Assembly (NCBI RefSeq): GCF_018977255.1
Contig: NW_024704742.1
Location: 119,786,001-119,850,000 of the forward strand
From: Callorhinchus milii
Taxonomy: Eukaryota
Direction: 5' to 3'
DNA length: 64,000 bases
The position numbers and the translations under genes are program-made. Numbering within the stretch: the first letter of the stretch is position 1; the number at the start of each line of letters is the position of its first letter. Shown piece by piece: positions 218-47,859 of the stretch. The notes under the pieces were generated by a model. The model saw only the letters and a list, made by a program, of their open reading frames with translations, made no database searches and had not been told where the DNA came from.

Positions 218-348
218 TAAAGCCTGAACTACCATCTAAAATAACTTACAGAAAGAGTTCAGGAGAGTTACATCTGACTTGGAAAACTTTAAAGAACCTT
301 CGCTATGAGTTACATTACAAACAACGTGGAATGCCAAGCTGGATTTCA
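218..348 (+). CDS. Cytokine receptor exon: first half of CHR D3 domain
   Basis: gctacag|TAAAG...TTTCA|gtaagt. Encodes (V)KPELPSKITYRKSSGELHLTWKTLKNLRYELHYKQRGMPSWIS, the typical VKPxxP..LxW..YxLxY..W pattern. Phase 1 to 0. Confidence 0.9.
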
Positions 349-1951
349 GTAAGTAAACCCTTGGGAGATGAAAAGCATTGATGTATTTATCAGTTGTATC
401 TTGCAGCAAATATATACTGGCCCAAATATGTCTTGTTTACAAGTTCTAAGCATTGAAAAGGAGCATCTCTGAGTTTATTCATACTCTCTTTCTCTAACAC
501 AGTCACTACACTTTACAGTCAATTCTTGCGAAGCGTTTTGAGACATCTCAGCAATGTGATAATCTGCTATATCAAACACAATTATAGGATTTTTATTACT
601 CAGATCAAAATAGGCCAAAATAATAATAATAATAATAATATCAGGGGTAATTTCAAAATACATTTTAACCTATTTCTTAATTAATTAAAGACCAGAAATG
701 TGTTTAGGATAACCACAATTTTAACATAATTATAACTAGATTTACTGTAAAATGCATCATAGGTGCACATTCAAATTAATAATTATGTCATATCGTGAAC
801 GTTCTTTTTATGCCATTGAGAGTGCATATAATTTTCATAACATGACTGGGCTCAAGAATGGAAATATGTCTGGTCAAAATTTTGGTGCAAGTCACTGTTG
901 TCACTGCCACGAGTAACAATTTGATACCTTTTCCTTCTTTAACATCGCTAACACCGATTTGGTATTAAATACACTGATTTTTTTGCACTTTTTCTGCTGT
1001 GGAATTCCTCCTTAACAACTCTTAACAATTCCACAAAAGATTCAAAGGCCCCTTCCCATAATAAGAAATAAAATTGACCTGGGTTTGATTCCAGGCAGGG
1101 CGAAATATTGGGTAAGTTTCCTTACTCCACACTCTACTGTTTACATAGCAGTAAGTAGGAACCCAGTTGTTAGACGATTGGCGGATTGCTTTTCTGGGGG
1201 TAATAGTTCCTTAAAAAAAATAGTATATTGATCACTTCAATCCTCGACTATTTGTGGGACACTGCTGTGTGCAATTGCCTGCTGCGTTTCGCCCACAGAA
1301 TACACAGTTAATTCACTTCACAGTATATTTTGTGAAGTGCTTTGAGTTGTCTCGAAGATGTGATAAGGCGCTATATTAAATGCAAGGATTATTATTATTA
1401 TTATTATAGGCGTTATATCAAATACAAGGCTTATTACCATTATTATTATTTTGTGCTGGATAGGAATTTCAGAGACAGCCCTGAAAAATGTGTTAGGGTA
1501 TTGTGAAAGTCTGATATTAATAACAGTAATCTGCATTTATACCGACTCTTTCATGTAAAAATAAGTGCTTTGAAGCACTTTACAAAATCATTAGATTAGA
1601 AAGAAAGCGAATGTACCTAGGCAAAAGAAGGAGCTGATCTGCACTGGCAAAAGCCCATAAATAACAATCAAATGAGCAGTCGATATCAATGCAGCCTTGT
1701 TAAAATACGTTTCAATAACAGCGCAGATTCATTTATAACATGAATGGTGTGTGGTCCCCAAACATTATGTATGTTAGTGCTCCGAGACGCTATCTGCATG
1801 TAGAGCGCAATATAAATGCATGTTGTTGTTGTTGTATATGCCAGGCCAGCCAGTTTGATTCCTGCATTAAAAATGTCCAGGTCATTAAGTTGCCACTGAC
1901 ATCACCTCCTGCACATTGTAATGCATAACAACAACAACAAGATTCCATTTA

Positions 1952-2640
1952 TAACATAAGAACATAAGAAATGCTAGACAAAAAAAGACCAAGTCCATCT
2001 AGTTTGCCTTCCAGCGTCCTAGCAGTCGCATGCACATATGTTCCAAACTACCTATGTATTATATCCCATAATGTTATTTCCTAAAAAAAAGAAAACTATT
2101 TTCAACACTTCCTGCTTCAACTGTCTCCCTAGGGAGCCTGTTCCACAGGATCACTATTCACTCATTGAAATAGTAGATTCATTCTGAATTTACCGCCCCT
2201 TCAATCACAGGCCATGCCCTGTGGTTTTACTGTCTATACTAATCTATATTGATTGGCTCCTTCAGAATCTTAAAGACAGCAATCATGTCGCCTCTCAATC
2301 TTCTCTTTTCTAGCGTGAATTTACCCAATTTACTAAGTCGCTTCTCATAGTCCAGTCCCTCCATTCCGTCAATCATTTTGGTTGCCCTCCTCTGTATCTT
2401 CTCCACTTCTCCAGTATCTTTTTTATACTGCGGCGACCAGAACCGTACACAGTACTCTAAGTATGGTCTCACCAATGATGTATACAGTGGTAGGATTACC
2501 CCATTATTTTGGCTTGCTATTGATCTTTTGATACATCCCAACATCTGGTTTGCTTTACTCACTGCCACAGAGCATTGTTGGGAGAGCTTCAATTTATTGT
2601 CAATCAGGACCCCCAGGTCCTTTTCATTTTCCGTACATAT
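1952..2640 (-). mobile_element. CR1 LINE, 5'-truncated 3' end
   Basis: EKDLGVLIDNKL...LVRPYLEYCVRFWSP...LEKRRLRGDMI; short tandem tail (cataagaa on +). Confidence 0.9.
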
Positions 2641-2912
2641 TTCATAAATATTCCATCCATACATTCCATACACAACACATAAGACAAGGGTGACCGCTGG
2701 TTCCGTGGACGTCCTCTATTTGATTTAGAATGAAACTGAGACAATTAACACTTCTCATAGGTGGCTATTGGACCCTTTACATTCATCAAAAAACAAGTGG
2801 AATTAAAATTGAGGAAGAAGAAAACAAAAGAAAGAAAAAAATAAGAAAATAAATGAATAAAAATAGGGAAAATAAATACCCAATAAAATTTATATTTTTG
2901 CTAACATGAGAG

Positions 2913-3335
2913 ATCAGCCTGCCTCAGTTACTAGTACTCCTGTCTCTGAGTCAGAGGTTGCAGGTTTCAGCTGCACGTTGGGACTTTGAGCTCATAGCCT
3001 AACATTTCAGTGCATTACTGGTGCTGAATTGATGGAGGTGCCATCCTTCAGATGAGACATTAAACCAAGATCATGTCTGCTTGTTCAGATGGATGTTAAA
3101 AACCCATAGCGCTATTAGAAAAGTGAAGGGAGTTTCTTCCAGTGTCGTGGCCAACAATCCTGCAGTTAAAATAATTGGTGATTCACTTCATGGTTGTTTA
3201 TGGGACATTGTTGGGCACAAATTGGCTGCTGCATTCACCTACAAAACTACAGTCATTACATTTTATAGTAAAATTTTGTGAAACGCTTTGAGATGTTTTG
3301 ATGACATTATAAAGTGTTATCTCAAGTGGAAGATT
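2913..3335 (+). mobile_element. Deu-domain SINE (SacSINE1/AmnSINE-like)
   Basis: tRNA-like head, then ggaggtgccatccttcagatgagacattaaacc...gatgttaaaaacccat...gtgtcgtggccaac (Deu core), then L2-like tail. Confidence 0.78.
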
Positions 3336-3584
3336 TTTTTTAAAACAGGGAAATTTGAAGCTCAAATAATGAGATACATGAATTTTAAGTGAAGGAGGAA
3401 ACCCCAGTATCTAGGAGCATGTCTGATACAACACAAATGTCGTCATTTCGTACATACACACTGTTTCCGTTATCTCTCTACTCTTGTTAAAGTGCAGATG
3501 CATGGAAACCACAGGCTTCCTAAACCACATAAGAACCAAGCAGTGAAAATGCTCTTTAAACATGATTGTAAAAAGCCCCAAATT

Positions 3585-4330
3585 ACATTTGTATAGCCTC
3601 TTTCATATCGGGAGGACATCCCAAGGCGCTGGTCAGTCAAGGTTTTGGACCCGACCTGGGGGTCAGTAACGGGGAGGGTGAAGAGCAGGGAGGCTAGGAG
3701 GGTGGCCGAAGGCTTGGTTGAAGAGGAGAGTTTTGAGACATGGGAAGGAGGCAAGGGAGGGAGCGAGGCAAAGGGAATGTGGGTTGGAAATCCATAGGGT
3801 GGAGGCAGAAAGCTGAAGGCCCATTCGCTGATGGTGGGGTAGGCTGGGTGGGAGATATGGAGCAGGCCAGAGCCTGCTGAGCGGAGGGAGTGGACAGGTT
3901 GATATGGGCTCAGAAGGTCACAGAGGTAGGGAGGGGCAAGGCCATGGAGGGCCTTGAAGGCGAGGACGAGGATTTTGAACTCTATCCTCTGGGGGACAGA
4001 GAGCCAGTGGAGCTGGACGAGGATGGGGGTGGTGGGGTCACGGAGGCTGGTGCAGGAGAGGACATGAGCTGCAGAATTCTGGATGATCTGCAAAACATGG
4101 AGGGAAGAGTTGGGAAAGCTGACAAGCAAGAGGTTGGGTAGTCAAGCCTAGATGTGATGAACGCATGGATGAGGGTTTTGGCAGCCTGAGGCAGTGGCAA
4201 AGCCAGGCAATGTTGCGGAGGTGGGGGAAGGCAGAGCGGGTCATGGCACTGATGTGGGGTAGAAAGAACAGTTGAGGGTCAAACAAGACAGCAAGGTTCC
4301 GGACTGGCGCAGTGAGATGGAGTGTGCATC
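3585..4330 (-). mobile_element. L2 LINE 3' fragment
   Basis: LIHAFITSRLDY; LQIIQNSAA; LHWL..QRIEFKILVL.FKALHGLAPPYL. Confidence 0.9.
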
Positions 4331-4731
4331 CTTAGATGGTGATGACAGTACAGCCAGTCTTGCTCATTGGCAGGACCTGGAAGGGCAGACCAATCATTAA
4401 GAGCCCACTCAGCTCCTGTTAACCCTGCAAGCCAAAGTCCTAATGAGTAGGGTGGTTCTAGCTGGACAACCAGCAAGAAAACTTGACAGGCAGCAATATC
4501 AATGGCAAGCTATGTGGTTTTAGCTGGTTAGCCTCCAGCAGTACCTCAACGCACACTCTGGGGTCCCCAAGCCGTGGCTCTTGCTAACCTGCACCTAATT
4601 CTTTCCAGAATTAGGTAAACAGGATGTGTCCCTCCAAGGAGAGAGTGTATATTCCATTCCAACAATCTATCTCTGGAATTTCCATGTATAGGTGGGATGC
4701 ATGGAAATCTCAGTTTGGTTTGGATACTCTT

Positions 4732-5181
4732 ACAACAACAACAACAATAACAACAAGATTCCATTTATTGAGCGCCTTTCATGTCGGGAGGACGTCCCAA
4801 GGCGCTGTACAGTTGGGTCAGGATCCAAGCAGGGGGGAAATGGTCAGGGTGAGGGGAGGAAAGGGAGGGAGCGAGGAGGGGGTAGAGAGTCGAGAGGGGA
4901 GCTGAAGGCACGGTCAAAGAGAAAGGTCTTGAGACCGGCCTTGAAGGAGGAAAGGGAGGAGGCGGCGAAGGCACTGGGGGATAGAGTTCCAGAGCCTAGG
5001 GGCTGAGAGGCTGAAGGCCCGGCCACCGATGGTAGGGCGGTTGGGGTGGGGTATGTGGAGCAGACCGGAGCCAGAGGAACGGAGGGTACGGGCAGGTAAG
5101 TAGGGGGATAGTAGGTCAGAGAGGTAGGAGGGAGCAAGGCCGTGAATGGCCTTGTAGGTGAGGATGAGGAACTTGAATTTG
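4732..5181 (-). mobile_element. Young L2 LINE 3' fragment with (TTG)n tail
   Basis: Near-identical to the 3' part of 9608-10417; FKFLILTYKAIHGLAPSYLSDLL. Confidence 0.92.
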
Positions 5182-5494
5182 AGCATAGTGATGAGTTTCT
5201 ACATGTGTCAGACCAAAAAAAATCAGTGTGTTGATTATCATCAGGCTGCTTTTTTCACTGCATGTGAATCATGGGATGTGTTAACAAATGCTTAGTTTCC
5301 ATTGGTCAGGTTCTGCAGTGCACACTCTTTCTCCCCAGAGGGACTAGCCCTAATCCCAGAGGGTTTAAGAACTGGTTGAGAAAGAGCCAAGGTTTAGGAA
5401 TCCCAGAGGGTACATTTGGATTGCTGGAGTTTAACCAGCTATCATTGTTTCTATAACAAGTAAACAGAGACTAACTACATTTTTATTCCTAAAG

Positions 5495-5624
5495 CTTATA
5501 CCTGTACTGTCTGGAGAGGCTCATGTATCAGGATTAGAAGAACTCGCTGCCTATGAGTTTCAAATGTGCTGCAGATCTGAATCATCGCCCTGTTTCTGGA
5601 GTAACGTTTACCATGTTCCACCCG
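5495..5624 (+). CDS. Cytokine receptor exon: second half of CHR D3 with degenerate WSxWS (SSPCFWS)
   Basis: ttttattcctaaag|CTT...CCCG|gtaagt. Encodes LIPVLSGEAHVSGLEELAAYEFQMCCRSESSPCFWSNVYHVPP. Phase 0 to 1. Confidence 0.88.
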
Positions 5625-5649
5625 GTAAGTAAGTACGTTAGCCATTGCA

Positions 5650-6500
5650 ATTGGTTTGCATGAAAGCACAATCGAAGAGGAAGGTCTTCAGTCGAGAATT
5701 GAAGTAGGCAAGAGAATGGGTACGGTGGAGGGATTGAGGGATAGAGTTTCAGATTGTGGGGGCAGAGATGTTTAATGCCCAACCGCCAATGGTGGAGCGG
5801 GCAGTGCGGGAGACCTGAAGCAGGCCAGTGTCCGCCGAGTGGAGGGAATGGACAGGCTGATATGGAGTTATGAAGTCAGAGAGGTAGTGGGGAGCAAGAT
5901 GTGGAGGGCCTTGAAGGTAAGAACAAGAGTTTTGTACTCGATTTTCTGAGGAATGGGGAACCAGGCAAGAACAGGGGTGATAGGTTCCCGGAGACTGGTG
6001 TGGGAGAGAACACAAACTGCAGAGTTCTGAATAATCTGCAGCTTGTGGAGGGAAGAGTTGGGAAGCCTGGTGAGCAGGCAGTTGGTGGAGTCAAGCTGGG
6101 ACCTAATGACAGCGTGGATCAGGGTCTCGGCGGCCTGCGGTGAGAGGCAGTGGCGGAGGTGGGCAATGTTGTGGAGGTGTGGAAAGGCGGAACGGGTCAC
6201 GGCACAAATGTGGGGTTTGAAAGATAGCTGAGGGTTGAAAAGGACTTCAAGGTTTGGGATTGACTCGGTGAGGTGAAGAGTGGCGTCATGAAGGGTGATA
6301 GTATCAGCGGCTGAGGTGAGGAGGCGCTGCCGGAAGCCAAGCAGGCGGGCCTCTGTCTTGCCAACATTGAGCCGGAGGAAGTTGGCTCTCATCCAGGACT
6401 TGGTGTCAAACAGACAATTAGCCAGGATATCAACGGTCCTGGAGTCGAGGGTGAAGGCGGCGAGATAGGGTTGGATGTTATCCGCATACATGTGGAAAGT
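5650..6500 (-). mobile_element. L2 LINE RT fragment
   Basis: FHMYADNIQ...NFLRLNVGKTEA...AAETLIHA. Confidence 0.9.
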
Positions 6501-6791
6501 ACAGTGCTTGAGGAGCTCTGCATTGTCAGACATGTTGTCTTTTGGGTGAGACATTAAAGGGAAGTACTGTTCAGGTGGATGTTAAAGATTCCGTGACACT
6601 ATTCAAAAAGAGGAGTTTCTTCCAATGTTTTGGCTAACAAACATCCAGATAAAATCGGCATTCACTTCATAGCTGTTTGTGAGCCATGTGTGTGTAATTA
6701 CCTGTGAAGTGCTTTTAGATTTCAATATTATAGGTGATACATCAGCTCCAAGGATTATTATTACATTTTAGACTTTATGATTTGTACAAGC

Positions 6792-7109
6792 AATAATAAT
6801 AATAATCCTTGCATTTGATATAGCCCTTTTCACGTCGGGAGGACGTCCCAAAGCGCTTCACAGAACACACTGTAAAGCGAATTGACTGTATATTTGTGGG
6901 CAAACGCAGCAGCTAATTGCGCACAGCAATGTCCCACAAACAGTCGTAGATTGAAAATGACCAATTTATTGTTGTTTTTTGTTTTGGAGGGATTATTATT
7001 AGTTGTGTGGAGTAAGGAAACTTGCCCAAGGTTTCGCCCTCTGCCTGGAATTGAACTCAGGTCTCTCACTTGCAAAGCGAGTGCTCTAACCACTGAGCTA
7101 CAGGACTCC
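6792..7109 (-). mobile_element. tRNA(Ala)-derived SINE, full length
   Basis: Reverse complement closely matches 46117-46437. Confidence 0.9.
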
Positions 7110-7557
7110 ACATTGAGGTATTGAGTATTGAGTATTGAGGTCGCTGGACATTCAAAGTCTTTTTGCAAGTAAATTATTACTATTTACTAATAAATAGTAA
7201 ATAAGTGTCATTCCTGCCCACGATCTTTCCCCATTACTTATAAAGCTCGGGTGCAAATCCTCGACTGCCCAGCGCTTTGGGATGTGAAAGACACTATGCA
7301 ATGTAAATTTATTGTGTTGTTATATTGTCACTTGCAGTCGTGTTTGAGCGAGCTTCAACCATACACTGAATACCATAGCATACATGGGCATTGGTGAAGA
7401 TTAGTTGAGTACAGTTACACATTGTAACTTTGTAATTTTTCGTTGATTTTTAGTACTTTAATCTGGCGATCGTGAGCCAATATTCACAGCAATTTGAAAC
7501 AAGGCCGACAATAGAGCAAGATTTCAACTAACAATAATTCTTTCTATTTTATCATAG

Positions 7558-7643
7558 AACTGAGAGAAATGCCTCAAATTCATTTGCCCATCCATACTAT
7601 ACAAAACAAAAATGGAAAGCGTACGATTTCTTTAAGTTGGGAG
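7558..7643 (+). CDS. Cytokine receptor exon: start of first membrane-proximal FN3
   Basis: ttttatcatag|AAC...GGGAG|gtacgt. Encodes (E)LREMPQIHLPIHTIQNKNGKRTISLSWE, the short exon typical of tall receptors. Phase 1 to 0. Confidence 0.88.
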
Positions 7644-12242: not shown

Positions 12243-12459
12243 AATCCAACTGGGGTTGTCAATGAATCAATAGATGGATACAGTGTCACCATTGAAAGGC
12301 TCCCTTCAAACAAAAGAGGCAATTGGACATTTACAAGAATCAGCAGGGAGTGTACTGTCATCCTTTCAGGAGCCAGTTTCAAAGTTCAGGTTCTGGCTTA
12401 TAACGCAGCCGGAACCTCTCCTACATCAGAAATAACAATCCCACCTTTTACACAGATGA
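12243..12459 (+). CDS. Cytokine receptor exon: FN3
   Basis: tttttctttcag|AAT...ATGA|gtaagt. Encodes NPTGVVNESIDGYSVTIERLP...VILSGASFKVQVLAYNAAGTSPTSEITIPPFTQM. Phase 0 to 1. Confidence 0.92.
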
Positions 12460-12566
12460 GTAAGTGGGATAAAAAATAATTATATGAAAAAATTAACTTA
12501 CCTTACTCAAATGTCACTACCTTCCTTGTTTTCACATCTAAAACCTAACATTTCATCTTTCCACAG

Positions 12567-12755
12567 GTCTGAGAAAACAGCTAAATGCCTCCATACTTGG
12601 GAATAACACTATTTTTGTTAACTGGAAAACAAATAAAAGTAAAAAAACAAAACTACGAAGGTTTATACTTGACTGGTATCAAGTCACTGGGAACAAAACT
12701 CTGATTATTCAATCAGAAAAATTAAAAAAGCCTATGAGTAACTACACCATTAAAG
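12567..12755 (+). CDS. Cytokine receptor exon: FN3
   Basis: tctttccacag|GT...AAAG|gtattt. Encodes (S)LRKQLNASILGNNTIFVNWKTNKSKKTKLRRFILDWYQVTGNKTLIIQSEKLKKPMSNYTIK. Phase 1 to 1. Confidence 0.9.
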
Positions 12756-13979
12756 GTATTTTTTTTTCTTTCCACTTCTTATGATGTTCTTTGTTTTAAT
12801 GCGTTTTCAGATTGTTGAGTTTCTATGTTTCTGTTTGTTTGTCCTTATGGATGTGCTAACAGGAAGTCCTGTAGCTTAGTGATTAGAGCAGTCACCTCCC
12901 TCGCAAGCGAGAGGACCTGGGTTTGATTATTATATTCTATTAAAGACCGTGGTTCCTTATCTTTTCGGGACTTGAAGTCACTTGGTCTAAGCTGAAAGTC
13001 CAATAATAATAATAATAATCCTTGCATTTGATATAGTGCCTTATCACGTCGTTGAAATGTCTCAAAGCACTTCAAGGAATATACTGTAACGTGGATTGAC
13101 TGTATTTTGTGGGAGAAACATGGCAGCCAATTGGGCACAGCAGTGTCCCACAAACAGTTGTGGATTGATTGACCAAATTTATTCATTTACTATCTATTTA
13201 CTCCTGTTCTGCAAATTCTGCTTAACTCAAAGAGGAATATAGTCAAAATTGCCACACCAGATGCACATTACCTTCTGAGCTGACGAGGACAAGTCCTGCA
13301 TCAACTTTTAACTCGGTATAATGTGGAGAAACCCAGTGTAAGATCCTCATAACCATAGATAATAAAATCCTAGTCAAGACCACTCAAGCCAGACCCATCT
13401 CCAGTTACAGACACAAACACTTTGTGTATAAATAAGAGAAATGTGTACAAATAGGTTTGGATTTATTCCCCTCCAAATCAAATAGTAAACGCAAGAGTTT
13501 GAAATCTCTCCAAAGGGTAATATAAGAGATGGAAAAGTCCTTCTATAATTTTTCTCCAAAACAATGCAGTGCTGATGGGGGTGTTGCACGATCAGAGGAA
13601 CCGTCTTTCGGATGAGACATTAAACTGAGCTCCAGTCTGCCTGTTCAGATGGATGTTAAAGAACCCATGGCCTTAATTGGAACAAGAAGGGAGTTTCTCC
13701 CAGTGTCCTGGCCAACAATCCCCCAAATAAAAGTTGGTCATTTGACAGCGCTTTGAGACATCTTTCCGACATGATAAGGCACTTTACCAAATGCAAGGAT
13801 TATTACTGTTTATTATTCCCCCTGCAACTGGCCCGGCACTGATTTTATCCAGGGGATTCTATCTTCTACATCCCCTCTTCCCGGTTCTGCTTATTCTCAT
13901 TATCAATTCTGCGTTGATCTTCCTCTGGGTCTAGATGCATAACAACTTTCCAATTCTTAGTCTCTTAGTCTCTGGACTG

Positions 13980-14425
13980 GAATAATATAATAATACATAA
14001 TTTTATATAGTGCCTTATTATGTCATCAATGCGTCTCAAAAACCTTCACAGGATTTTACTGTAAAATATTGTGACTATGTATTTTGTAGGCAAGTGTGGC
14101 AGCTAATTTGCACACAGTAAGGTTCCACAAAAAGCCATGAACAATTTTATTTGAGGGACTCTTGCCAGGGGACTGAGAAAAACTTCCTTCCGTATTTATG
14201 AATAATGCCATGGGAACTTTAAGTCCACCTGAACAAACACAGTCGGGGCTTCGATTTAACGTCTAATTTGAAGGCCGGCACCTCTAACAGTGCAGCATTC
14301 CCCCAACAATGCATTGGAGTGTCAGCCAAGGTAGACTCTGAGCTCAAAGTCGCGATGAGGTTCTTGAACACCCAACTTGCTGACTCACGGTGATAGTGCT
14401 ACCAACTGAGCCGGGCTGACACCTG
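13980..14425 (-). mobile_element. Deu-domain SINE
   Basis: Same head, core and tail on the minus strand. Other copies near 6525-6760, 13560-13810, 29075-29555 and 57290-57520. Confidence 0.75.
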
Positions 14426-14982
14426 TTCCATAACAATTTAGAAGGTATTTGCTACAAGAAGCGCCCACGTATATCAACTGGGGGGCTGAGTCAGGACATA
14501 ACTATCAAACAGAACCCTAAAGATACAGCAAAGTATGCTGAATCCACGAGGATGGTAATCATTAGAAACTGTCAGTAGAGTTTGAGTCCACCCACATCTG
14601 TTAAGTTGGACTAATTTCTATCACTTTCACCTGTTGTATAAAATTAGAAGCAACAGTACAGCAGGAGTAACTAGAACATAGTCCTATGCTACAGCACAAA
14701 CCAACGTATCAAACGTCTTTTTCCCTTTCAAAATAATTTAGCACTCTCCCACAACACTAGTTTGCGGCAGAGAATTCTACATTCCAACCAACCTCTGTTT
14801 CAACAATTTATTCTTAACCATCCCTTTAATTCTTTTGGGGAATATCTTACATTTGTGCTCATTTCAGCTTTGGAGGTGTACATTGTTGCACTGATCATTC
14901 ACCTCAGGCTCTTAATATAAAACAATTGGAGCTGAAGATTAATGCTTTGGTTTGATTTGATCTGCACCCTGGTGGTATATTT

Positions 14983-16222
14983 CATAGATCATAGAATCAT
15001 AGAATCGTACAGCACAAAAAGAGGCCATTCGGCCCATCGAGTTTGTGCCGGCTCTTTGAATAGAGCAATTAATGTCAACCCCACTCCCCAGCCCTTTCCC
15101 CATAACCCTGCAAATCCATCCTCCTCAAATACCCGTCCACCGCGTTTTTAAAAGTTGTTATCGAATCGGCCCCCACCACCTTTTCAGGCAATGCGTTCCA
15201 GATTCGAATAACTCGCTGCGTGAAAAAATTTCTTCTCACCTCCCCTCTGCCTCTGTTTTAAATCTGTGACCTCGAGTCACCGACACACCCACCAGTGGAA
15301 AAAGTTTTTCCCTTTCTAACTTATCGAATCCCCTCATGATTTTGAAGACCTCTATTAGGTCTCCTCGTAACCTTCTCTGTTCCAATGAGAATAATCCCAG
15401 CCTCTCTAGCCTTTCCTCATAATCAAGGTCCCTCATTCCTGGTACCATCCTCGTAAATCTCCTCTGCACCCTTTCCAATGCCTTAACATCCTTCCTATAG
15501 TGTGGTGCCCAGAACTGGGCGCAGTATTCTAACTGAGGCCTAACCAGTGTTTTATATAGGTTAATCATAACCTCCTGACTCTTGTACTCTATGCCCCTAT
15601 TTATAAAGCCTAGTATCCCATATGCCCTTTTTACAGCTTTATCTACCTGTCCTGCCACCTTCAAGGATTCATTTACCTGCACCCCAAGGTCTCTCTGTTC
15701 TTTTACCCCCTTAAGATTGTATTACCAGCCTATATTGCCTCCCCTCATTCTTTCTACCAAAATGCATTACCTCGCATTTCTCCACATTGAAACTCATCTG
15801 CCATGTGTCTGCCCATTTTACCATTCTGTCTATGTCTTCCTGCAGTTGGCTCCTATCCTTCTCACTGTTTACTACCCTACCTAACTTTGTGTCGTCCGCA
15901 AACTTGGAAATGGTATACCCAAGTCCAGATCATTTATGTATATTAAGAAGAGCAGTGGTCCTAATACCGATCCCTGGGGGACGCCACTGTACACTTCCCT
16001 CCAGTCAGAAAAGCAGCCGTTCACCACAACTCTCTGCTTTCTGTCTCCCAGCCAGTTCTGGATCCATGCTGCCACTGTCCCTTTTATACCATGGGCTTCT
16101 ATCTTTCTTACAAGTCTTTCATGTGGCACTTTGTCAAATGCCTTTTGAAAGTCCATATAAACTACATCAACTGCACTACCTGTATCCACCCTCTCCATTA
16201 TCTCATCGAAAAATTCTATTAG
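14983..16222 (-). mobile_element. CR1 LINE RT fragment with 3' tail
   Basis: [17 protein letters not shown]...[22 protein letters not shown]; (GATTCTAT)n-type tail at ~14983-15006. Confidence 0.93.
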
Positions 16223-17089
16223 ATCTGGTTGAAACACCTCAATGCATGGATTTCCCTTCAAAATGCTTTTATTAGATCGCCCTTTCATTTGACTGAATTT
16301 CCATTTCAGCTGTCTTGCAGAGATATTAAAGCGAAGATAATTGGTAACAGCTTAGCCTTTTTGAAGATTTTGGCATAAATATGTTACATCTGTCTCACTG
16401 TCTTTAATGTGCATCATTAATAATTCAAAAATGAATAAAATATAAGTTAATAAAACTGATGTGCAGTAAAATATAGAGGGCAGCAAACCTCAAAAATTAT
16501 ACTTTGATGTTACTATTTCACCGTCGCTCAAATATTATTTCCTCCCTAAAAACTCGATTTCTCATTAACTATTCAAAACCTGCTCAGGACACTTGCATTC
16601 TAAATGAGAGAGAGAGATTGATTGAGGGAGAGAGAGAAACAAAAAGAGTGAGAGAGTAGAGAGAGGAGAAGTGAGGGCAGTGTTTCTTGGTTCACTGTCA
16701 GGACAGACAATCGGAGCTTCCCTCAGTCACTGTTGGGGGGCCCCGAGGATAGACACAGAGTGATGTGCCGTGCAGTTTCCTCCCAGAAAGCTCCTTCTTT
16801 CCCCAGTGAAAAACTCCACTGTGTCCTTCATTCCCTCCCACTCTACTTCTGCAAGCTCTTGACCTGGCTGTTTCCTTTACAGGCATACATCAGCGTGCTT
16901 CATGTCCCCCCACCCAATCTGCCCCACCATCGTCATTTTCCCCTCACTCTCTGGAGCTTCATTCCTGGAGTCCTTCCGACTCCCTCCATCCCTTCTTTCA
17001 AAGCACTTCAAGAGCTAAATCTTTGACTTTTCCCCTCCCCATTCCACCTCTCTCGGCTCCCACCACCAGCTCAGTTGCCCAGCTGGCAG

Positions 17090-17470
17090 TGTTTAGTGCT
17101 TTAAGATAAGAGGTTTTAAGGACTAACAGAGAAGGGAAGCAGGGCAAGAAAGACAAAGGAGAAAATGGGGTGGAGGACAGAGGATGATGGGTTAAAGAAA
17201 TGTTAATAATGCAAAACAAAAGAGGGCAGCACAGGCAGACAAGAGAGAAAAGGTGCGTCTGGGACCCAGATGATGTGCAAATGGTCACAGAAGAGGAGGA
17301 AGAGGAAGGTAAGCTGTTATGGGAGATGTTCTAATGGTCTGAAGTGGTTGAACTCAATATTGAGGCCAAGGTCCCTAGCAGATAGATGAGGTGCTGTTTC
17401 TCGAGCTTGCGTTGTGCTTCATGGGAACAGGATAGGAGACCATGGATGGAGAGGTCAGAGTGTGAGTGGG
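17090..17470 (-). mobile_element. Penelope-like element remnant (GIY-YIG endonuclease C-terminus and 3' UTR)
   Basis: SHSHSDLSIHGLLSCSHEAQRKLEKQHLIYLLGTL, then after a frameshift LNIEFNHFR; recognised Penelope EN tail pattern. Confidence 0.75.
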
Positions 17471-18746
17471 AGAGTAATTCTTTCCAGTTAACAGGTTTAT
17501 TTTCTGTGGGCATTTATTTCCTTATCCTATTGATAATAATTTGTCTTCTTATTGTGGAGGAAGAAGTACATCACAACAATGTACAACACAGAAACAGGCC
17601 ACTCGGCTTAACCAATCTGTGCTGGTGATTATACTCTAATACAAGTCTTCACTCATACCTTACTCCCTCCATTACTCTTCTATTCCCATCTACCTCAGGT
17701 GAAGGTCTAGCTTCCTCTTGAACAGTCATTAATCTCTTTAGTCTCCTCTCCCGCCGTTTTCCTACCATCCTCTCTCTGGCGTGTCTGGTGCTGGGCAGTG
17801 ACATATATGCAGCTCAGCTGCTTACAGATAGATTGAGATTAGTTATTTTATTTTTAACTCAATCACCACTGTGACTGAGCAAACAGTCCACAGGCCTCTA
17901 TCAGTGATGCTGGAAACGTTTACAAGGCCTTTGGGAAAGAGCGGGCAAGTGGGACTAATTGGATTGCTCTTTTCAAAGAGTAGGCAAAGGCACGATGGGC
18001 CAAATGGCCTCCTTCTGTGCTGTAAGATTCTATGCTCTGCGATCAAAGGTAGGGAATCTACTATGGCTTAGTCCTGTGATGACAGTGTAGGTTTATTATC
18101 AAATTTAGCTTTAGAATTGGTTTGATAACTACCAGGGTGGATTGTAGGTTAACTACATTCATTTGCTCTTGATACTATTGGTTGTCTTTCTTTTATTCAG
18201 TATAGAGTATGCATTTTTATAGGCTTTTTGTAATTGCTTTGCTATCTTGTAGGCATACTTTGCTTGCCATTTAGAGGAACAGGAGTATTCAACAAGAATT
18301 CAACCTTTAGATTAAAATGGTGCCCCAATACCTATATAACATTTCATTAGTTCTGTGTAATAAGTTTGGTTCTATGTGCCTGACTCTGTCTTAGCCACTT
18401 GAAAACCAATTCTCAGCATTGACCCTCTCCTGCTTCGGGGAAGTACTTTGTCTCTACTCAGGATGTTACCTAAATTGGCTTGTCTGAGATTCAGAAATCA
18501 CTATATTCTTGTAGAAGAGCAATGATTTCATTTGAAGAGCAAAGATTTTATCCCTACAAATATATGCCTCTGACATTTCTATAATTTTAGCATTATGCAA
18601 GTACAGTTTGTTCTATCACCTGTCTGCAGATTAATTTTGAAAATATTTTAGTATGAAATTGTAACTGTTTATGGTTGGGTCAAGTGGCCTGTTTCTGGGT
18701 TGTACATTCTTTGTTTACTGTATTAAATTGTTTTCCATTGATTTAG

Positions 18747-18866
18747 GACCATTTAAACCAAATCAACGATATAGAATAATGTTACATCGGAGAGAAAACA
18801 AAAGAAACCAGGTGAATGACAGTGAGACAACAGAAGGGATGGTTGACATTTACGTATTGGAAGGAA
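18747..18866 (+). CDS. Cytokine receptor exon: FN3
   Basis: gatttag|GA...GGAA|gtgagt. Encodes (G)PFKPNQRYRIMLHRRENKRNQVNDSETTEGMVDIYVLEG. Phase 1 to 1. Confidence 0.9.
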
Positions 18867-18970
18867 GTGAGTTTAACTATATTTTTTTGATTTTTTTTCT
18901 ATTTCTATTACTACATTTCATTTTTTAAAAAACATTAACACATGTGCATTTGATTTCCTCCCAACTTCAG

Positions 18971-19132
18971 CACCTAAGAAAAGTCCAGGTAATCTTAGAG
19001 TCACCAATATTACCCAAAACACCGCAATGATAAGATGGAATAAAATACCTGAAGAAGATTGTGAAGGTTTTCTTCAAGGGTACAAGATTATCTATGATTT
19101 TCACATGGCTTCCATCAGTAAACCTTTGAAAT
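18971..19132 (+). CDS. Cytokine receptor exon: FN3
   Basis: ccaacttcag|CA...AAAT|gtaagt. Encodes (T)PKKSPGNLRVTNITQNTAMIRWNKIPEEDCEGFLQGYKIIYDFHMASISKPLK. Phase 1 to 1. Confidence 0.93.
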
Positions 19133-19910
19133 GTAAGTTGAAAATATATAAGTATAAAACTTCTGTAAGTGAAAAATTCTCCTTGATACAGATTAATTTC
19201 CTAGCAGTAATATATATGCTATTTCACAATTAAATGAAATTTGGCCAAATGGGAAACCAAATGGAGGAGGAATAAAGAAACATCCCAATGGTAAAGAACA
19301 ATCCTCCAAATAAAATTGATCATTCACTCAATATTGCTCTGAGCAAATTGGCACCCACAAAATGGACAGTCACACCATATTACAGTACATCCTGCGAAAC
19401 ATTTTGAGACGTCTTGACAACGTGATATGGAGCCATATCAAATGCATGGATTATTTTATGACAAAGTACCAGGTAGCTTCAAGGAAAGCGATTGAGTCTG
19501 CTAACCTCAGTTCATGTATACTCAACGGCAATTCAAGTTGCCGTTGAGTATACTGTCACCAAACAAAGGAATCTTTCATCCAGGATGGCTAGAGTCCAAT
19601 CCAGGCCCCAAGTAAAAGAACAATAAATAATACTTATAATAATCCTTGCTTTTCATCTTGCTACTTATCATGTCATTGATGGCACTTCACAGAATATATT
19701 GTAAAGTGACTGTGTATTTTGTGAGCGAAACACAGGAGCCAATTGCACACAGCAGTGTCCCACAAACAGTCGTGTCAATGTGCTACACCATCCTATCCTT
19801 GTTACCTTGTTTCTAACCTTGCTCTTTATTGGTATTTTTTACTGGTTCAAGCATTGACTGTGTGTGTTGTCCCTCAGGGAAGTAAGTTTGCGTTTCTGTT
19901 ACTTTTGCAG

Positions 19911-20054
19911 CCATTTCAGTAAACTCATCCACGGCCAGTTTGGTGCTCACTGGGCTAACACGCAAAACTGTGTATGCGGTGCACGCTTTGGGCTTCACCA
20001 ACGCTGGAGATGGAGTCAGGAGTCCAGTTGTGTCTTTTGCTACAGAAGAATTTG
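19911..20054 (+). CDS. Cytokine receptor exon: end of last FN3
   Basis: acttttgcag|CC...TTTG|gtaaag. Encodes (S)ISVNSSTASLVLTGLTRKTVYAVHALGFTNAGDGVRSPVVSFATEEF. Phase 1 to 1. Confidence 0.92.
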
Positions 20055-23195: not shown

Positions 23196-23292
23196 GTGAT
23201 GGAGAAATAACAAAAATTGCTGTTGGTGTTTCTTTTGCTGTTATTGGTGGTGTGTTTCTTCTGGTGTGGATATTTTCAGTGATTGTGAAAAG
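23196..23292 (+). CDS. Cytokine receptor transmembrane exon
   Basis: gcaacag|GT...AAAAG|gtaaga. Encodes (G)DGEITKIAVGVSFAVIGGVFLLVWIFSVIVK(R), a hydrophobic helix followed by KR. Phase 1 to 2. Confidence 0.93.
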
Positions 23293-24231: not shown

Positions 24232-24313
24232 AGTAAAGGAAGATATTTGGCCGAACATACCAAACCCCAAGAACAGTTATGCGATTGAAATTATGAGGAA
24301 GGGTCCATCAGTG
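24232..24313 (+). CDS. Cytokine receptor Box1 (JAK-binding) exon
   Basis: ttttatttcag|A...GTG|gtatgt. Encodes (R)VKEDIWPNIPNPKNSYAIEIMRKGPSV, the gp130-type WPxIPxP Box1. Phase 2 to 0. Confidence 0.94.
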
Positions 24314-25537: not shown

Positions 25538-25933
25538 CCAAACCTGAATGATGACTCGCTAAATCTTAGCACCAACGCCCCTGCTGAAGAAGCAGAAGAG
25601 GAGCTTGAAATCATTCATCCCATTGAAGGAGTCCTCAGCTCACCCACTCATCAGGAGTTGCAAAAGAATGAACAAGATAACCTATTAAGAGACCCCGACC
25701 AGGAATCTAGAAATAGCCTCAAGAGCAAACCAACAGCAGTTGTACAAGTTACTGATTACACAACAATGGAGCACTTCCACCAAATGATGCCAAACTTTGC
25801 AAACAATGGACTGGAGGCACATTTGTCCGGCCTGACCAAAGTAAGGCAGAGTGTAACTACCAAAGTCAACAGAGTGACTTTCCAGTCCCAGACTATGTTA
25901 AACAACCAGTCCACCAAGCATTTAAGCAAATGA
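25538..25933 (+). CDS. Cytokine receptor terminal (cytoplasmic) exon as written; true C-terminus may continue in the -1 frame to 26082
   Basis: ttgttag|CCAAAC. Encodes PNLNDDSL...EEELEII...VTDYTTMEHFHQMMP...HLSK*. AATAAA at 26167-26172. Confidence 0.8.
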   Translation, partial: PNLNDDSLNLSTNAPAEEAEEELEIIHPIEGVLSSPTHQELQKNEQDNLLRDPDQESRNSLKSKPTAVVQVTDYTTMEHFHQMMPNFANNGLEAHLSGLTKVRQSVTTKVNRVTFQSQTMLNNQSTKHLSK

Positions 25934-26374
25934 ACACCAAAACAAGTAGAAATCAAACAGAGTGGGTTATACAGCTGAAGGATTCAGAAACCCTGAACTT
26001 GTTAAATAGTCTGAATTTGAAGCAGAAGCCATCAGGTGAACAATGTGAACATCTTTATTCTGAGGATTCAATACATTTGTAGAATTATTTTACTGTGATT
26101 ATTAATATTAGACAACTTCTACAACAATTATTTTTAGACCTTTATGGACAATATTTAGTCAATAATAATAAAATAACCATTTGTTCACACTATTACCACT
26201 GTTACCACTGTGCCAGGCTCTACAAAACAACTTGCACTTATATAGTGCCTTTCAGGATGAATGACTTAAAGCACTTAACAAATATGGTAGGAAGCCATGA
26301 GCAGAAAGTAAAAGGATTTTGACCAGCAGCAGTAGAATATAAAATACAAAAGTTAATCAGAATTAATCTAGAAT

Positions 26375-37269: not shown

Positions 37270-37533
37270 CTAATAACAGTCTTCAGATAAAGAATCAAGT
37301 TGTTTATGCATAGAATTTAAGTCTTCAGTCACTGTATCAGATTTCTCTTCACCTCCCTCTTCAACCCTCACTGAAATAATATTCTCAGACTTGGGCGCTT
37401 GTTCTATGGTGTTGTCAATTAATTTATGGTTGCCATTTTCTTTAATTTTGACCAAACCTTCGCTGTTGGTGTCTGTACTTTCTTTGTCCTTTTCACTACT
37501 ATGCCCTTCGTCATTACTGCACTCTCTTTTCAC
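37270..37533 (-). CDS. SREK1: SREK1 terminal coding exon
   Basis: tattttacag|GTG...TAG. Encodes VKRECSNDEGHSSEKDKE...KIKENGNHKL...SEDCY*. Phase 0 matches exon 11. Confidence 0.85.
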   Translation of the reverse strand: MKRECSNDEGHSSEKDKESTDTNSEGLVKIKENGNHKLIDNTIEQAPKSENIISVRVEEGGEEKSDTVTEDLNSMHKQLDSLSEDCY

Positions 37534-37734
37534 CTGTAAAATAAAATATATTAAAATCATAGACAGCAATAGTATAATAATTTAAATATACCCTGTACCT
37601 TTAATCATCTTAGTTTAAACATTTTGGGTGGAGCGTGTAAGCCAAGACAGTTTTTGTTGTTACAGAAAACATTACAAAATGTAACTTGTATGACTCAAAG
37701 TAAGATATCATGAGGAAAACTGATGATTTTGTAC

Positions 37735-38195
37735 TTCAGCTGACAGCCAATGTTTCAGACTTGAGCTGGGGGGCGGGATTGGGGAGGGTGGAGGGCAGGG
37801 GGGAGAAGCAAGATGATTGAGTTGAAGAGGAGGGTCTTGAGATGAGTCCTGAAGGAGGCAAGGGAGGGGGTGAGGAGGAGGGACTGCGGGATGAAGTTCC
37901 AGAGGGTGGGGGCAGAGTGGCAGAAGACCTGTCCGCCAAGGGTGGGGCGTCGAAGGAGCGAAGCAGGCCGGAGCCCGCTGAGCGGAGGGAGCTGGAAGGA
38001 TGTTAGGAGGTCGCAGAGGTAGGGAGGAGCAAGACCATGGAGGACCTGGATCTTGAACTTTATCATCTGAGTGATGGGAAGCCAGTGGAGTCGGGCGAGG
38101 ATTGGGGTGATAGGGTCAGGGAGCCTGGTGCGGGAGAGGACATGGGTGCAGAGTTTGGATGATCTGCAGCCTATGGAGGGAGGAGTTGGGGAGAC
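37735..38195 (-). mobile_element. L2 LINE 3' fragment
   Basis: LHGLAPPYLCDLL...SAPTLWNFIPQSL. Confidence 0.85.
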
Positions 38196-38831
38196 ATCTT
38201 TGTTACAGGTAAGGTTTCTATATTTATTCCTCCTACAGCTTATTTAATTTATGCTAGTAACATAAATAACTACCATGGACAGGGGAATAGAGGGGGAAAG
38301 GAGAAGGGAATAAGAAGGATGCGGCTCGTATAGAGTATAAACGGTCTCATTCCGTGTCATATTACTTTATGTAACTATTACTGAAGGCTAAATAGACTGA
38401 AAAAAATGAAAGATCTGATACTGATAGATGTATAAACAAAGAGACATATAGAGAGGCATGAATAATTTGCTGAGGTAAAAATCAACAGACATTATTGTCC
38501 AGAGCATAAGTCAAAAAACTAGTATTTTGTAATTACTGAAAAATTATTGTACAACCGTTCTGGAATAGACTGGGTAGTCCACTATTCCTCCACTGTTTAT
38601 TCATTACATAAGTCTAATCTTCAGCGAGCTTAACTACACATCAGAGAAGAATCTTCATTTCCCATTTACTTATTCTTGGTGCTTTACTCAAAGTCAGTTA
38701 TTCAGACTCAAATGAGAAATAGAAATGAGTCTTGGTATAACAGGAGAATTTTTACTGTCTATACTTGAATAGAAATAAAATATAAATATGCTTGTGGTAT
38801 TCACCTTTGTAACCAAATCATCAGATCCCAC

Positions 38832-39009
38832 CTTGGTGTCTGTTTTGTCCAACTTTGATTTCCGTTCCTTCTCTTTGTCTTTCTTTTTCTTTGAGGTAGA
38901 ATGCTCCCTTCTGCTCCTGTCTCGGCTCTGAGCTCTTGAATTTCCTGTGATCTTGTCTCTGTCTCTGCTGTGCTCTTTGTCTTTATCCTTCCTTTTTTCT
39001 TTCTTACTT
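38832..39009 (-). CDS. SREK1: SREK1 exon 11
   Basis: tttgccag|A...AAG|gtggga. Encodes SKKEKRKDKDKEHSRDRDK...STSKKKKDKEKERKSKLDKTDTK. Confidence 0.9.
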
Positions 39010-39374
39010 CTGGCAAATAAACAAAATTGTGGTATAAAACTGGCATTATAAAAACTAATCATACATGGTCAGTGTTTCGGTTTATTCTTTAATATATTAT
39101 GTTATACAGCTACAAAAAAACTGTAGATGTAATCAGTGGCATTTCTTCAATCACCTTCAACACAGTACAAAATCAGAAAGCTAAGTTAATTTCAGGTGAG
39201 ACCCCCCCCCCCCCCCCCCCCAACACCTTGGGACATCATCCTGACATGAAAGGCACTAATATGAATGCAATATTGTTGTTGTTCATTAGGAACAATCCAA
39301 ATTAGATTCAACACAAGTTTCTGAAAGTGAGATTTCAATTAAGTCAGCTTTTTTTTCCAACTATACCACTTTGG

Positions 39375-39610
39375 TAGTGGTTGTTCACGTCTCACCACCA
39401 CCGGTGGAACTGTCTCCTACAAAAGGCTGTGGACAATGGATCCATTCACATCTTCAAGACTGAGTTGGACAGATATTTTTTAGGTCAGGGTCTCAAGGGA
39501 TGTGGGGCAAGGGCGGGTAATTGGAATTGAGGTACACATCAGACATGATCTTATAGAATAGTGGAATAGGCTCGAGAGGCTGAATGGCCTACTCCTGTTT
39601 CTATGCACCC
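39375..39610 (+). mobile_element. CR1 3'-end fragment
   Basis: ggaactgtctcctacaaaaggctgtgga...aggctgaatggcctactcctg. Similar pieces near 17905-18045, 28170-28300 and 60700-60865. Confidence 0.7.
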
Positions 39611-39682
39611 GTCATATTTTTGAATTATATTGCACTGTATTGTAATAAATTATCCAGTTCGACAATTTCTGTAAAGGCCCAC

Positions 39683-39772
39683 CTTCTCGGAGAAGCTGAT
39701 CTTGAAAACTTTCTTTTTGGTGTTCTTGACTTCCTTTTAGATGGACTCCTGCTTTTCTTTCTGAACCTCTCT
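39683..39772 (-). CDS. SREK1: SREK1 exon 10 (RS)
   Basis: ttatatag|A...AG|gtgggc. Encodes ERFRKKSRSPSKRKSRTPKRKFSRSASPR(R). Confidence 0.88.
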
Positions 39773-40610
39773 CTATATAAACAGAATTACACACAATATT
39801 CAAATCAACAGGTAAGATGTAACAATGAAATAGACAATAAGAGAGTATGTGCCTGTGGAGAGTAGCAAAACAGAAATAGGAGAAGGTCCATCAAGCCTGT
39901 TCCATTGGATCTAGACAGATCTTTTCATCTCAATGCCCTCCATTTTTACTTTGACAACCCAAGTCTCTCCCCCCCACCCTTGCTTGACATGTAAATCATG
40001 AAAGGCGTTATATAAATGCAAGTTGTCATCTCTGATACCACTCATAAATTTCAGTTAAAAAGCGCTAGGATGTTTTTCCTCTGTTGGATGGACCAACCTG
40101 GAAGGACAACTCGATCATCATCAGCCTCTCTGCCCCCACCCTTTGGAATTCCATCCCACATTCACTTGGCTTCTTCAAGGCACGTCTCAAGACCCTCCTC
40201 TTCGGCCACCCTCCTACCCTCCCTGATCACACTCACTCCCCACATCTGGCCCGGGTCCAAATCCTGGACTGTCCAGTGCCTTAGGATGTCCAATCAATGT
40301 GAAAGGCGCTCCACAAATGTAATTTTGCATTGTATTATATCAACTCAAGTAACAAACAGCAACAGCTTGTTATATAGGCCCTCCACACAGGGCAGTGTCT
40401 CAGAGCGCTTAACAATGGTGGAGCCGGCGCCACCCGTGAAACCAAAGCCAGATCCATTCGATCATATGCCAGCTTAAGTGAAGGCAGGTACTTCAGTGCT
40501 TAAACCCTACTGCTAACTCAACACTACGTTGTTTTCCAAATTAGACATTTCTCTAGTTTTACGAATTAACATAACTATAAACAGTTCAGGTTTATCACAA
40601 GGTATCTCAC

Positions 40611-40751
40611 CTGCTTGGGCTCCGAGAGCGTCTGGATAAGCTATAGTTTCTTTGCGGGGTCCTGGATTTCTTTTCTTTCTTTTTCCCATATTCTCTGTCT
40701 ACATCTTTATATCGCTCCTTTACTTTACTTTCCCTTTCTTTCTTCCTTTCC
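40611..40751 (-). CDS. SREK1: SREK1 exon 9 (short EK-rich segment)
   Basis: gctaacag|G...AG|gtgaga. Encodes ERKKERESKVKERYKDVDREYGKKKEKKSRTPQRNYSLSRRSRSPS(R). Confidence 0.9.
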
Positions 40752-44150: not shown

Positions 44151-44428
44151 CTTTTCACAAAGTTATACTCACTACCAATAGCTTCGTCCTACTTACACAT
44201 TCCCGGATAAGTTCCCCTTCCTATTGCCCATCCTGGGATGTGCCACTTTACTATTTTATTGTCATTCTTACCAGGAATTTTTGGCTTTTAAGTCAGAACC
44301 TGTCAGATGGCAACACCAGTGGGAATTTGTGTTTGTGTTTTTTTGTACTGCTGAGAAAATATTGTTAAAACACTGTAACTAGAAAGACAAGATATTAGGT
44401 TTGATGACAAATTTCAACTGATGTTTAC

Positions 44429-44557
44429 CTTGATCTGGAACGACTTTTAAACCGTCGTCTATCTTTGGATCGGGAACGCTTTTTGCGAGGACTCTTGGAT
44501 TTCGGTGTTTCTTTGTGTCTCGAGTGGGATCTGCATGGTGACTTGCTCCTGGAACGT
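44429..44557 (-). CDS. SREK1: SREK1 exon 8 (RS domain)
   Basis: ttttttcttgag|A...AG|gtaaac. Encodes RSRSKSPCRSHSRHKETPKSKSPRKKRSRSKDRRRFKSRSRS(R). Confidence 0.88.
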
Positions 44558-47679: not shown

Positions 47680-47859
47680 CTAGGTTAAAAAAAACTTATT
47701 TTAAGCACATTGCAATAACTGGTTTGGCATATTTGGAGATATGGATCCAATCAATGGAATTAGCAGCATAACAGCCATCTAGGTAATTTGCAATATGGAA
47801 TGTATGCAAGTTGTATAATTCTTTGCTGGACTGTTCTCAAAACCATCTGCCTGTGTGAC

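What the first reader, a model, noticed from the sequence alone, without database searches (positions are those of the whole stretch)
25756..26082. Two YxxQ (STAT3-type) motifs stranded in the -1 frame of the receptor's last exon
Seen: the spliced frame passes DYTTM and stops at 25933 with no further Tyr. The -1 frame is open from 25756 to TAG at 26080-26082 and reads ...KQWTGGTFVRPDQSKAECNYQSQQSDFPVPDYVKQPVHQ...HLYSEDSIHL*, with YQSQ (Tyr at 25858) and YVKQ (Tyr at 25894). AATAAA follows at 26167. Established: YxxQ is the STAT3 docking motif of gp130-family tails, and human IL-12Rbeta1 is regarded as a non-STAT-recruiting chain. Inference: one indel between ~25790 and ~25855 separates the conserved tail from its STAT sites. 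Either it is an assembly error and the real receptor signals through STAT3, or the species has lost those sites through a frameshift.
Basis: partly seen in the sequence, partly recalled or inferred. Interest (0 to 1): 0.7.

Follow-up and report, generated by a model that had tools for sequence, protein, structure and literature searches.

The report
Assembly error in IL-12Rβ1 sister receptor
The apparent frameshift is one base missing from this elephant-shark genome assembly; the intact gene encodes an unnamed cytokine receptor that is a sister copy of IL-12Rβ1, is kept from sharks to crocodiles, and likely signals through one conserved STAT3 site.

Summary
Contigs from all 4 runs that cover the site (three of this species from two studies, one a spliced transcript; one of a related species) carry one more C behind 25810, and an existing RefSeq model of this species already reads the joined frame, identical over all 181 residues of the exon. 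Eleven of 11 shark and ray orthologs keep DYTTM and Y-x-K-Q in one frame. Only the second motif (YVKQ) is conserved (23 of 28 orthologs); YQSQ occurs in 1 of 28. The gene is not IL-12Rβ1. A separate gene on contig C21 lies beside MAST and p85-beta and matches the named IL-12Rβ1 group. The window gene lies in the same layout beside MAST and p85-alpha and forms its own clade (sharks, ray-finned fish, amphibians, snakes, crocodilians), most likely an ohnolog of IL12RB1 absent from the human receptor set. Databases mislabel it as gp130, IL-31RA or LIFR; fish il12rb2l may be the same gene. Side result: 10 of 10 IL-12Rβ1-group proteins examined have a YxxQ that human and mouse lack. No earlier scan note covered this.

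The parts
25538..26082 (+). Last coding exon of the receptor (cytoplasmic tail after Box1); 181 codons in the read-supported frame
   Evidence: Acceptor AG 25536-37, phase 0; with the base seen in the runs the translation equals residues 302-482 of P0001; spliced to the Box1 exon in run X5
25810..25811 (+). Assembly error: one C missing from a CC pair
   Evidence: Extra C behind 25810 in X1, X2, X5 and X7, each at the full depth of the covering contig
25754..25768 (+). DYTTM; most conserved tail tyrosine, probable SH2 docking site (YxxM p85-type, or SHP2/SOCS-type; inferred)
   Evidence: Tyr in 28 of 28 aligned orthologs, YTTM in 20; position
25858..25869 (+). YQSQ: a YxxQ found only in this species' protein
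   Evidence: 1 of 28 at this column
25894..25905 (+). YVKQ: conserved YxxQ, predicted STAT3 docking site
   Evidence: Tyr 26 of 28, YxxQ 23 of 28; 12 of 12 in cartilaginous fish
25931..25933 (+). False stop created by the missing base
   Evidence: orthologs align to the -1 frame after the break (scores 48-88) and not to the as-written frame (17-31), 11 of 11
26080..26082 (+). True stop codon (TAG)
   Evidence: P0001 ends ...HLYSEDSIHL
26167..26172 (+). AATAAA, likely poly(A) signal 85 nt after the true stop
   Evidence: X5 contig ends at 26146; cleavage site not mapped
24232..24313 (+). Box1 exon (WPNIPNP, JAK-binding motif)
   Evidence: X5 loose end matches 24299-24312
23196..23292 (+). Transmembrane exon
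12243..20054 (+). Five exons of the membrane-proximal FN3 domains (12243-12459, 12567-12755, 18747-18866, 18971-19117, 19911-20054)
   Evidence: tblastn with orthologs, borders, Pfam fn3
218..7643 (+). Exons of the cytokine-binding module D2 and linker (218-348, about 5517-5624 with the WSxWS-type motif, 7558-7643); two more exons lie 1.2-3.2 kb before the window

Best explanation
The assembly lacks one C behind position 25810, and the real gene encodes an intact class I (gp130-group) cytokine receptor without an N-terminal Ig domain that is a distinct sister paralog of IL-12Rβ1 and likely recruits STAT3 through its conserved YVKQ site. Shown: the missing base, the joined frame, the conserved DYTTM and Y-x-K/R-Q, the separate IL12RB1-type gene on C21, and the matching MAST-PIK3R layout at both loci. 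Inferred: origin in an early vertebrate genome duplication; loss in the lineage to human and mouse; signalling by ligand-driven pairing with another group-2 chain, JAK binding at Box1 (WPNIPNP), phosphorylation of DYTTM (p85-type YxxM or SHP2/SOCS-type docking) and of YVKQ (STAT3). Most likely ligand class: a p40-type (IL-12/IL-23 family) cytokine, by descent from the common ancestor with IL-12Rβ1 (about 0.4; untested).
For: Extra C in 4 of 4 covering runs, from 3 studies and 2 organisms (X6, X11, X13 do not cover the site). P0001 (XP_007890419.1) equals the joined translation, 181 of 181 residues. All other coding indels in X7 and X11 keep the -1 frame (6, 18, and 2+1 bases); the A>G at 25908 is silent in the -1 frame and missense as written. 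Orthologs. Identity: profile prefers gp130 (162 bits) over IL-12Rβ1 (77); the C21 gene lies head-to-head with a MAST gene followed by p85-beta (89 vs 75 bits), the window gene head-to-head with a MAST gene followed by p85-alpha (104 vs 75); proteins named IL-12Rβ1 share the C21 signature CP..PDP / FEYRRQ; shark members of that group map to C21 (303 and 206 bits) not C1 (37, 42); a tree built without the tails gives both groups as clades (97, 95), joined at 100 against gp130, IL-31RA and other group-2 chains; Heptranchias, Geotrypetes and Alligator each have both.
Against: Raw reads of the assembled animal were not available, so a private one-base allele is not strictly excluded; Logan contigs drop rare variants. 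The X5 contig that carries the C and the X5 contig that shows the splice are different contigs. The tree's outgroup was chosen by hand and holds no identified IL-27RA, IL-12Rβ2, IL-23R, LIFR or OSMR, so 'sister' is shown only against the rows included; P0001 fills 48% of its columns. The MAST PDZ half-exons did not tell MAST4 from MAST2/3. The STAT3 site is not universal: 5 of 28 rows lack any YxxQ (two have YxxE), and further rows left out of the count also lack it (e.g. P0036, P0043, P0045, P0046, P0050, P0056). No functional data.
Confidence: 0.85

Rival explanations
1. The sequenced animal carries a real, private one-base deletion that truncates the tail; the species allele is intact.
For: The assembled animal's own reads were not seen; the window also differs from X1, X2, X5 and X7 at 25908, so it has at least one other private difference or error. 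Earlier scan notes judged other breaks in this genome real (not checked here).
Against: 0 of 4 covering runs show the single-C form; the older protein model has the joined frame; loss of one base from a doublet is the typical assembly slip (general knowledge).
Confidence: 0.04
2. The species has lost its STAT sites through a fixed frameshift.
For: Only the assembly itself.
Against: Three runs of the species and its RefSeq protein have the intact frame; a related species has it too.
Confidence: 0.01
3. The error is real but the gene is the true IL-12Rβ1 ortholog, or IL-31RA or IL-27RA, rather than a separate paralog.
For: Same Ig-less architecture as all three (PMC1963337, passages); NCBI names many orthologs 'IL-31 receptor alpha(-like)'; IL-27RA was not in the tree.
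Against: A different gene on C21 matches named IL-12Rβ1 and three species hold both; an IL-31RA-named frog protein and its two relatives (YLKN tail) fall in the outgroup and map to C1:123.3-123.4 Mb; no IL-27RA chain among the best 60 PDB matches of the profile.
Confidence: 0.1

Closest known systems
RefSeq XP_007890419.1 / LOC103177862, 'uncharacterized', Callorhinchus milii (P0001)
   Same: Same gene; last exon identical in the joined frame
   Different: The model is partial: it lacks the cytokine-binding exons and the exon at 18971-19117; it carries no family name
IL-12Rβ1 (IL12RB1)
   Same: No Ig domain, cytokine-binding module plus three FN3, Box1 exon and last exon in the same phases as the C21 gene, head-to-head with a MAST gene followed by a PIK3R gene; sister clade
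   Different: Box1 WP.IPNP rather than CP..PDP; tail DYTT plus Y-x-K/R-Q rather than FEYRRQ; beside p85-alpha rather than p85-beta; coexists with IL-12Rβ1 in the same genomes
Teleost il12rb2l (IL-12Rβ2.b of PMC1963337)
   Same: Atlas rank 2 cluster, score 0.98, 8 of 30 hits with that family set; PMC1963337 lists il-12rβ2.b with 17% similarity to IL-12Rβ2 and no synteny
   Different: Named as a teleost IL-12Rβ2 duplicate; identity with this clade was not tested by alignment or synteny
gp130 (IL6ST) and IL-31RA
   Same: Best PDB match is gp130; tail order of a Y-x-x-hydrophobic site followed by YxxQ resembles gp130 (PMC1963337 section 6; PMC12849345 passages)
   Different: gp130 has an Ig domain and several YxxQ; gp130- and IL-31RA-type proteins map to C1:123.3-123.4 Mb and other loci and form the outgroup

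Membership tests
Class I cytokine receptor, group 2 (gp130-like) | Cytokine-binding module with conserved Cys and WSxWS-type motif | tested here: met
   Cys and W-S-x-W-S/T in sharks and rays; degenerate (CFWS) in this species; profile matches gp130 CBM
Class I cytokine receptor, group 2 (gp130-like) | Membrane-proximal FN3 domains, one transmembrane helix, Box1 | tested here: met
   Pfam fn3 in 12 of 12; TM and WPNIPNP exons
gp130 (IL6ST) ortholog | N-terminal Ig domain | tested here: not met
   Orthologs go from signal peptide straight into the CBM; no PF06328 match at this locus
IL-12Rβ1 ortholog | Groups with named IL-12Rβ1 proteins | tested here: not met
   Separate clade; the C21 gene takes that place
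IL-12Rβ1 ortholog | Lies in the IL12RB1-MAST3-PIK3R2 block | tested here: not met
   Neighbouring PIK3R is p85-alpha; C21's is p85-beta. Human co-location of the three genes: PMC6823490 table passage; their order and strands are recalled
IL-12Rβ1 ortholog | Ig-less CBM + 3 FN3 architecture | tested here: met
IL-12Rβ1 ortholog | Binds p40 and Tyk2 | not testable with these tools
   No experiment possible; no complex prediction run
IL-31RA ortholog | Groups with IL-31RA and lies beside gp130 | tested here: not met
   P0146 (named IL-31RA), P0141, P0159 sit in the outgroup and map 3.5 Mb away
IL-27RA ortholog | Groups with IL-27RA | tested here: inconclusive
   No identified IL-27RA row in the tree; not among best 60 PDB matches; an IL27RA-domain cluster ranked 12th in the Atlas
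Ohnolog pair from vertebrate genome duplication | Paralogs in matching gene blocks on different chromosomes, both present across jawed vertebrates | tested here: met
   Receptor-MAST-PIK3R in the same order and orientation on C1 and C21; both clades span sharks to tetrapods. No jawless outgroup tested
STAT3-recruiting receptor | Phosphorylated YxxQ that recruits STAT3 | not testable with these tools
   Motif present and conserved in 23 of 28; function untested

The most novel reading that the evidence does not exclude
Jawed vertebrates have an eleventh, so far unrecognised group-2 cytokine receptor, the twin of IL-12Rβ1 from genome duplication, kept from chimaeras to crocodiles and lost on the way to human and mouse; both twins ancestrally carried a YxxQ site, so the signalling-silent mammalian IL-12Rβ1 is a late, derived state and IL-12/IL-23-type cytokines in fish, amphibians and reptiles can signal to STAT3 through two alternative beta1-type chains.
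Probability: 0.45. Interest if true: 0.6.

Novelty: new member of a known kind. Interest (0 to 1): 0.33.

Why it matters
The frameshift itself matters only as a correction to the assembly. The gene does matter modestly: it appears to be a vertebrate-wide IL-12Rβ1 paralog hidden under wrong database names (gp130, IL-31RA, LIFR, sidekick-like), which bears on how IL-12/IL-23 receptors evolved and on which chain the several fish p40 cytokines use. It gives a direct test: do non-mammalian beta1-type chains activate STAT3 on their own, where human IL-12Rβ1 has no tail tyrosine (PMC4945146)?

Tried and rejected
Programmed or splice-based frame rescue: not needed once runs showed the extra base; no joints inside the exon. 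No RNA holder was listed as on record; X5 is treated as RNA only because one contig joins the Box1 exon to the last exon. Whether organism B keeps YQSQ could not be read, because 35 substitution rows were cut. The search for homologous proteins found only cartilaginous fish; the distant orthologs came. PDB searches with single C21 exons were uninformative or weak (none; IL-12Rβ1 at E 0.98 and 1.5, the only cytokine receptor among 12; the matching window exon gave none among 18); the Atlas on a C21 exon gave no family; profile comparison of the C21 tail with A1 found nothing. MAST PDZ half-exons did not resolve MAST identity. No third paralog in 100 kb before the C29 MAST or 200 kb before the C5 MAST; these stretches may not reach the genes' 5' ends. 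The downstream RRM/RS gene could not be named from the PDB. The first tree did not finish; the second used fewer columns and a simpler model. Ten paper searches found no description of this paralog or accession; subscription papers are not covered, and the supplements and figures of PMC6238376, which may include this protein in its tree, could not be seen.

Full report
Observation. The last exon opens at 25538 after an AG, reads through DYTTM (25754-25768) and stops at 25931-25933; the -1 frame is open from 25756 to 26082 with YQSQ, YVKQ and YSED, and AATAAA lies at 26167. The open frame is unlikely by chance (12 of 20000 base shuffles), while two YxxQ in so Gln-rich a stretch arise in 3% of residue shuffles. 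The stretch is single-copy in G000.

The frameshift is an assembly error. Of 24 runs listed, seven different runs were laid. Four cover the site, and all four carry one more C behind 25810 at the full depth of the covering contig: X1 and X2 (study P1), X5 (study P2), all organism A, and X7 (organism B, about 90% alike). X6, X11 and X13 do not cover it. One X5 contig runs from the last exon into letters that match the end of the Box1 exon at 24299-24312, so that run holds the spliced message; the X5 contig with the extra C is a second contig. Independently, the RefSeq model XP_007890419.1, labelled Callorhinchus milii, already has the joined frame: the exon with the extra base translates to its last 181 residues without a difference. 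The other coding indels in X7 and X11 are of 6, 18 and 2+1 bases and keep the -1 frame, and the variant at 25908 is silent in that frame but missense as written. The assembled animal's own reads were not available, so a private allele keeps a few percent.

Which motifs are conserved. Eleven shark and ray orthologs all have DYTTM and Y-x-K-Q in one frame; after the break they align to the -1 frame (scores 48-88) and not to the as-written frame (17-31), 11 of 11. A profile search of 1.84 billion representatives added orthologs named from gar, bowfin, arowana, Aldrovandia, pike, wrasse, clingfish, caecilian, spadefoot toad, garter snake, gharial, crocodile and alligator (20 of the 150 listed hits were looked up). 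In 28 hand-picked, mostly full-length rows the DYTT tyrosine is present in 28, the YVKQ-column YxxQ in 23, and YQSQ in 1. The rows were picked partly by their tails, so the first count is inflated; several rows left out lack the YxxQ. Five of 11 sharks and rays have another YxxQ further upstream that this species lacks. So the receptor has one conserved candidate STAT3 site and lineage-specific extras.

Which gene it is. The protein has a cytokine-binding module, three FN3 domains, a transmembrane helix and Box1, and no Ig domain. That architecture is shared by IL-12Rβ1, IL-27RA and IL-31RA (PMC1963337, passages and section 6 read). The genome has four MAST loci and three p85-type loci. On C1 the receptor (+) faces away from a MAST gene (-) that is followed by a PIK3R gene matching p85-alpha (104 vs 75 bits). 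On C21 a second Ig-less receptor (-) faces away from a MAST gene (+) followed by a PIK3R gene matching p85-beta (89 vs 75). Human IL12RB1, MAST3 and PIK3R2 are listed at one locus in PMC6823490 (table passage); their order, and the names MAST4 and SREK1 for the C1 neighbours, are recalled. The C21 gene has Box1 CPVIPD and FEYRQQ, the signature of proteins named IL-12Rβ1 in alligator, echidna, platypus, caecilian, tailed frog and axolotl, and the two shark/ray members of that group map to C21 (303, 206 bits) rather than C1 (37, 42). A tree of 48 hand-picked rows, cut before Box1 so that tail motifs could not drive it, gives the window's group (22 rows, SH-aLRT 97) and the IL-12Rβ1 group (10 rows, 95) as clades, each with cartilaginous fish branching first, and separates both from 16 gp130-, IL-31RA- and other group-2 rows at 100. 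Heptranchias, Geotrypetes and Alligator each have a member of both groups. Limits: quick search without bootstrap, most outgroup rows unnamed, no identified IL-27RA, IL-12Rβ2 or IL-23R among them.

How it most likely works. Shown: intact tail with Box1, DYTTM and YVKQ. Inferred from gp130-group biology: ligand pairs this chain with a second group-2 chain, a JAK bound at Box1 phosphorylates the tail, YVKQ docks STAT3 (YxxQ, PMC1963337), and DYTTM docks either the PI3K p85 subunit (YxxM, recalled) or SHP2/SOCS3 as gp130's VQYSTVV does (PMC12849345, passages; the fit to that consensus is partial). The ligand is unknown; a p40-type cytokine is the best guess from descent.

Side result. All 10 IL-12Rβ1-group rows examined, monotremes included, have a YxxQ at one column, and so does the C21 gene. 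Human IL-12Rβ1 has no tail tyrosine and mouse has one outside a STAT motif (PMC4945146, passages).

Novelty. The frameshift is not a real feature. The gene is in the databases under shifting names (gp130, IL-31RA-like, LIFR-like, sidekick-like, uncharacterized). Fish il12rb2l is probably the same gene (Atlas rank 2, 0.98; not tested by alignment). PMC1963337 held the Ig-less chains to be tetrapod-specific, and the passages of PMC6238376 on shark group-2 receptors do not mention it, though its figure and supplements could not be seen. Passages of PMC11372145, PMC5680241 and PMC4929537 added nothing. Ten searches found no description of an IL12RB1 ohnolog; other papers were seen only as listings. 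Absence from mammals rests on the ten-member mammalian list in PMC1963337 and on recall, not on a genome search. The scan's earlier notes hold nothing near this place or on these words.

Verdict. The finding as posed is an artefact, confirmed with about 95% confidence. What lies under it is a probably unrecognised member of a well-known family; interest 0.33.

Noticed in passing
G000:C21:9409434-9420500 (-), loci L038-L039: Second Ig-less group-2 receptor, the likely true IL12RB1 of this species, with Box1 CPVIPD and a YxxQ (FEYRQQ) in a long acidic last exon.
   Followed up: partly
P0047, P0065, P0070, P0076, P0098, P0105, P0110, P0120, P0128, P0187: 10 of 10 IL-12Rβ1-group proteins, including platypus and echidna, carry a conserved YxxQ that human and mouse IL-12Rβ1 lack.
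   Followed up: partly
window 5517-5624: The WSxWS motif of the cytokine-binding module is shortened and degenerate in this species (CFWS) against WSLWS/WSSWS in sharks and rays.
   Followed up: no
window 37273-49768 (-): Exons of an RRM/RS-domain splicing regulator, tail-to-tail with the receptor; SREK1 by recalled synteny, not named by a tool.
   Followed up: partly
about 69.3-69.7 kb before the window (L008), minus strand: GC-rich open frame that resembles a MAST first exon (recalled likeness), placing the MAST promoter about 66 kb from the receptor's first found exon.
   Followed up: no
G000:C1:123.32 Mb (+) and 123.44 Mb (-); C21:9.72 Mb and 8.76 Mb: Four Ig-bearing gp130-like loci; the convergent C1 pair sits where IL31RA and IL6ST would (recalled), and both members carry an Ig domain.
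   Followed up: partly
P0026, P0040, P0045: A frog-type subgroup of this receptor (P0040 named from a spadefoot toad) has YxxE/YxxD in place of the conserved YxxQ and Box1 FPK.PNP, suggesting loss of the STAT3 site there.
   Followed up: no
window 18971-19117 and 218-7643: Intact exons missing from the RefSeq model P0001, which is a partial model.
   Followed up: yes
window 56331-56360: A 30-N gap beside a short tandem repeat.
   Followed up: no
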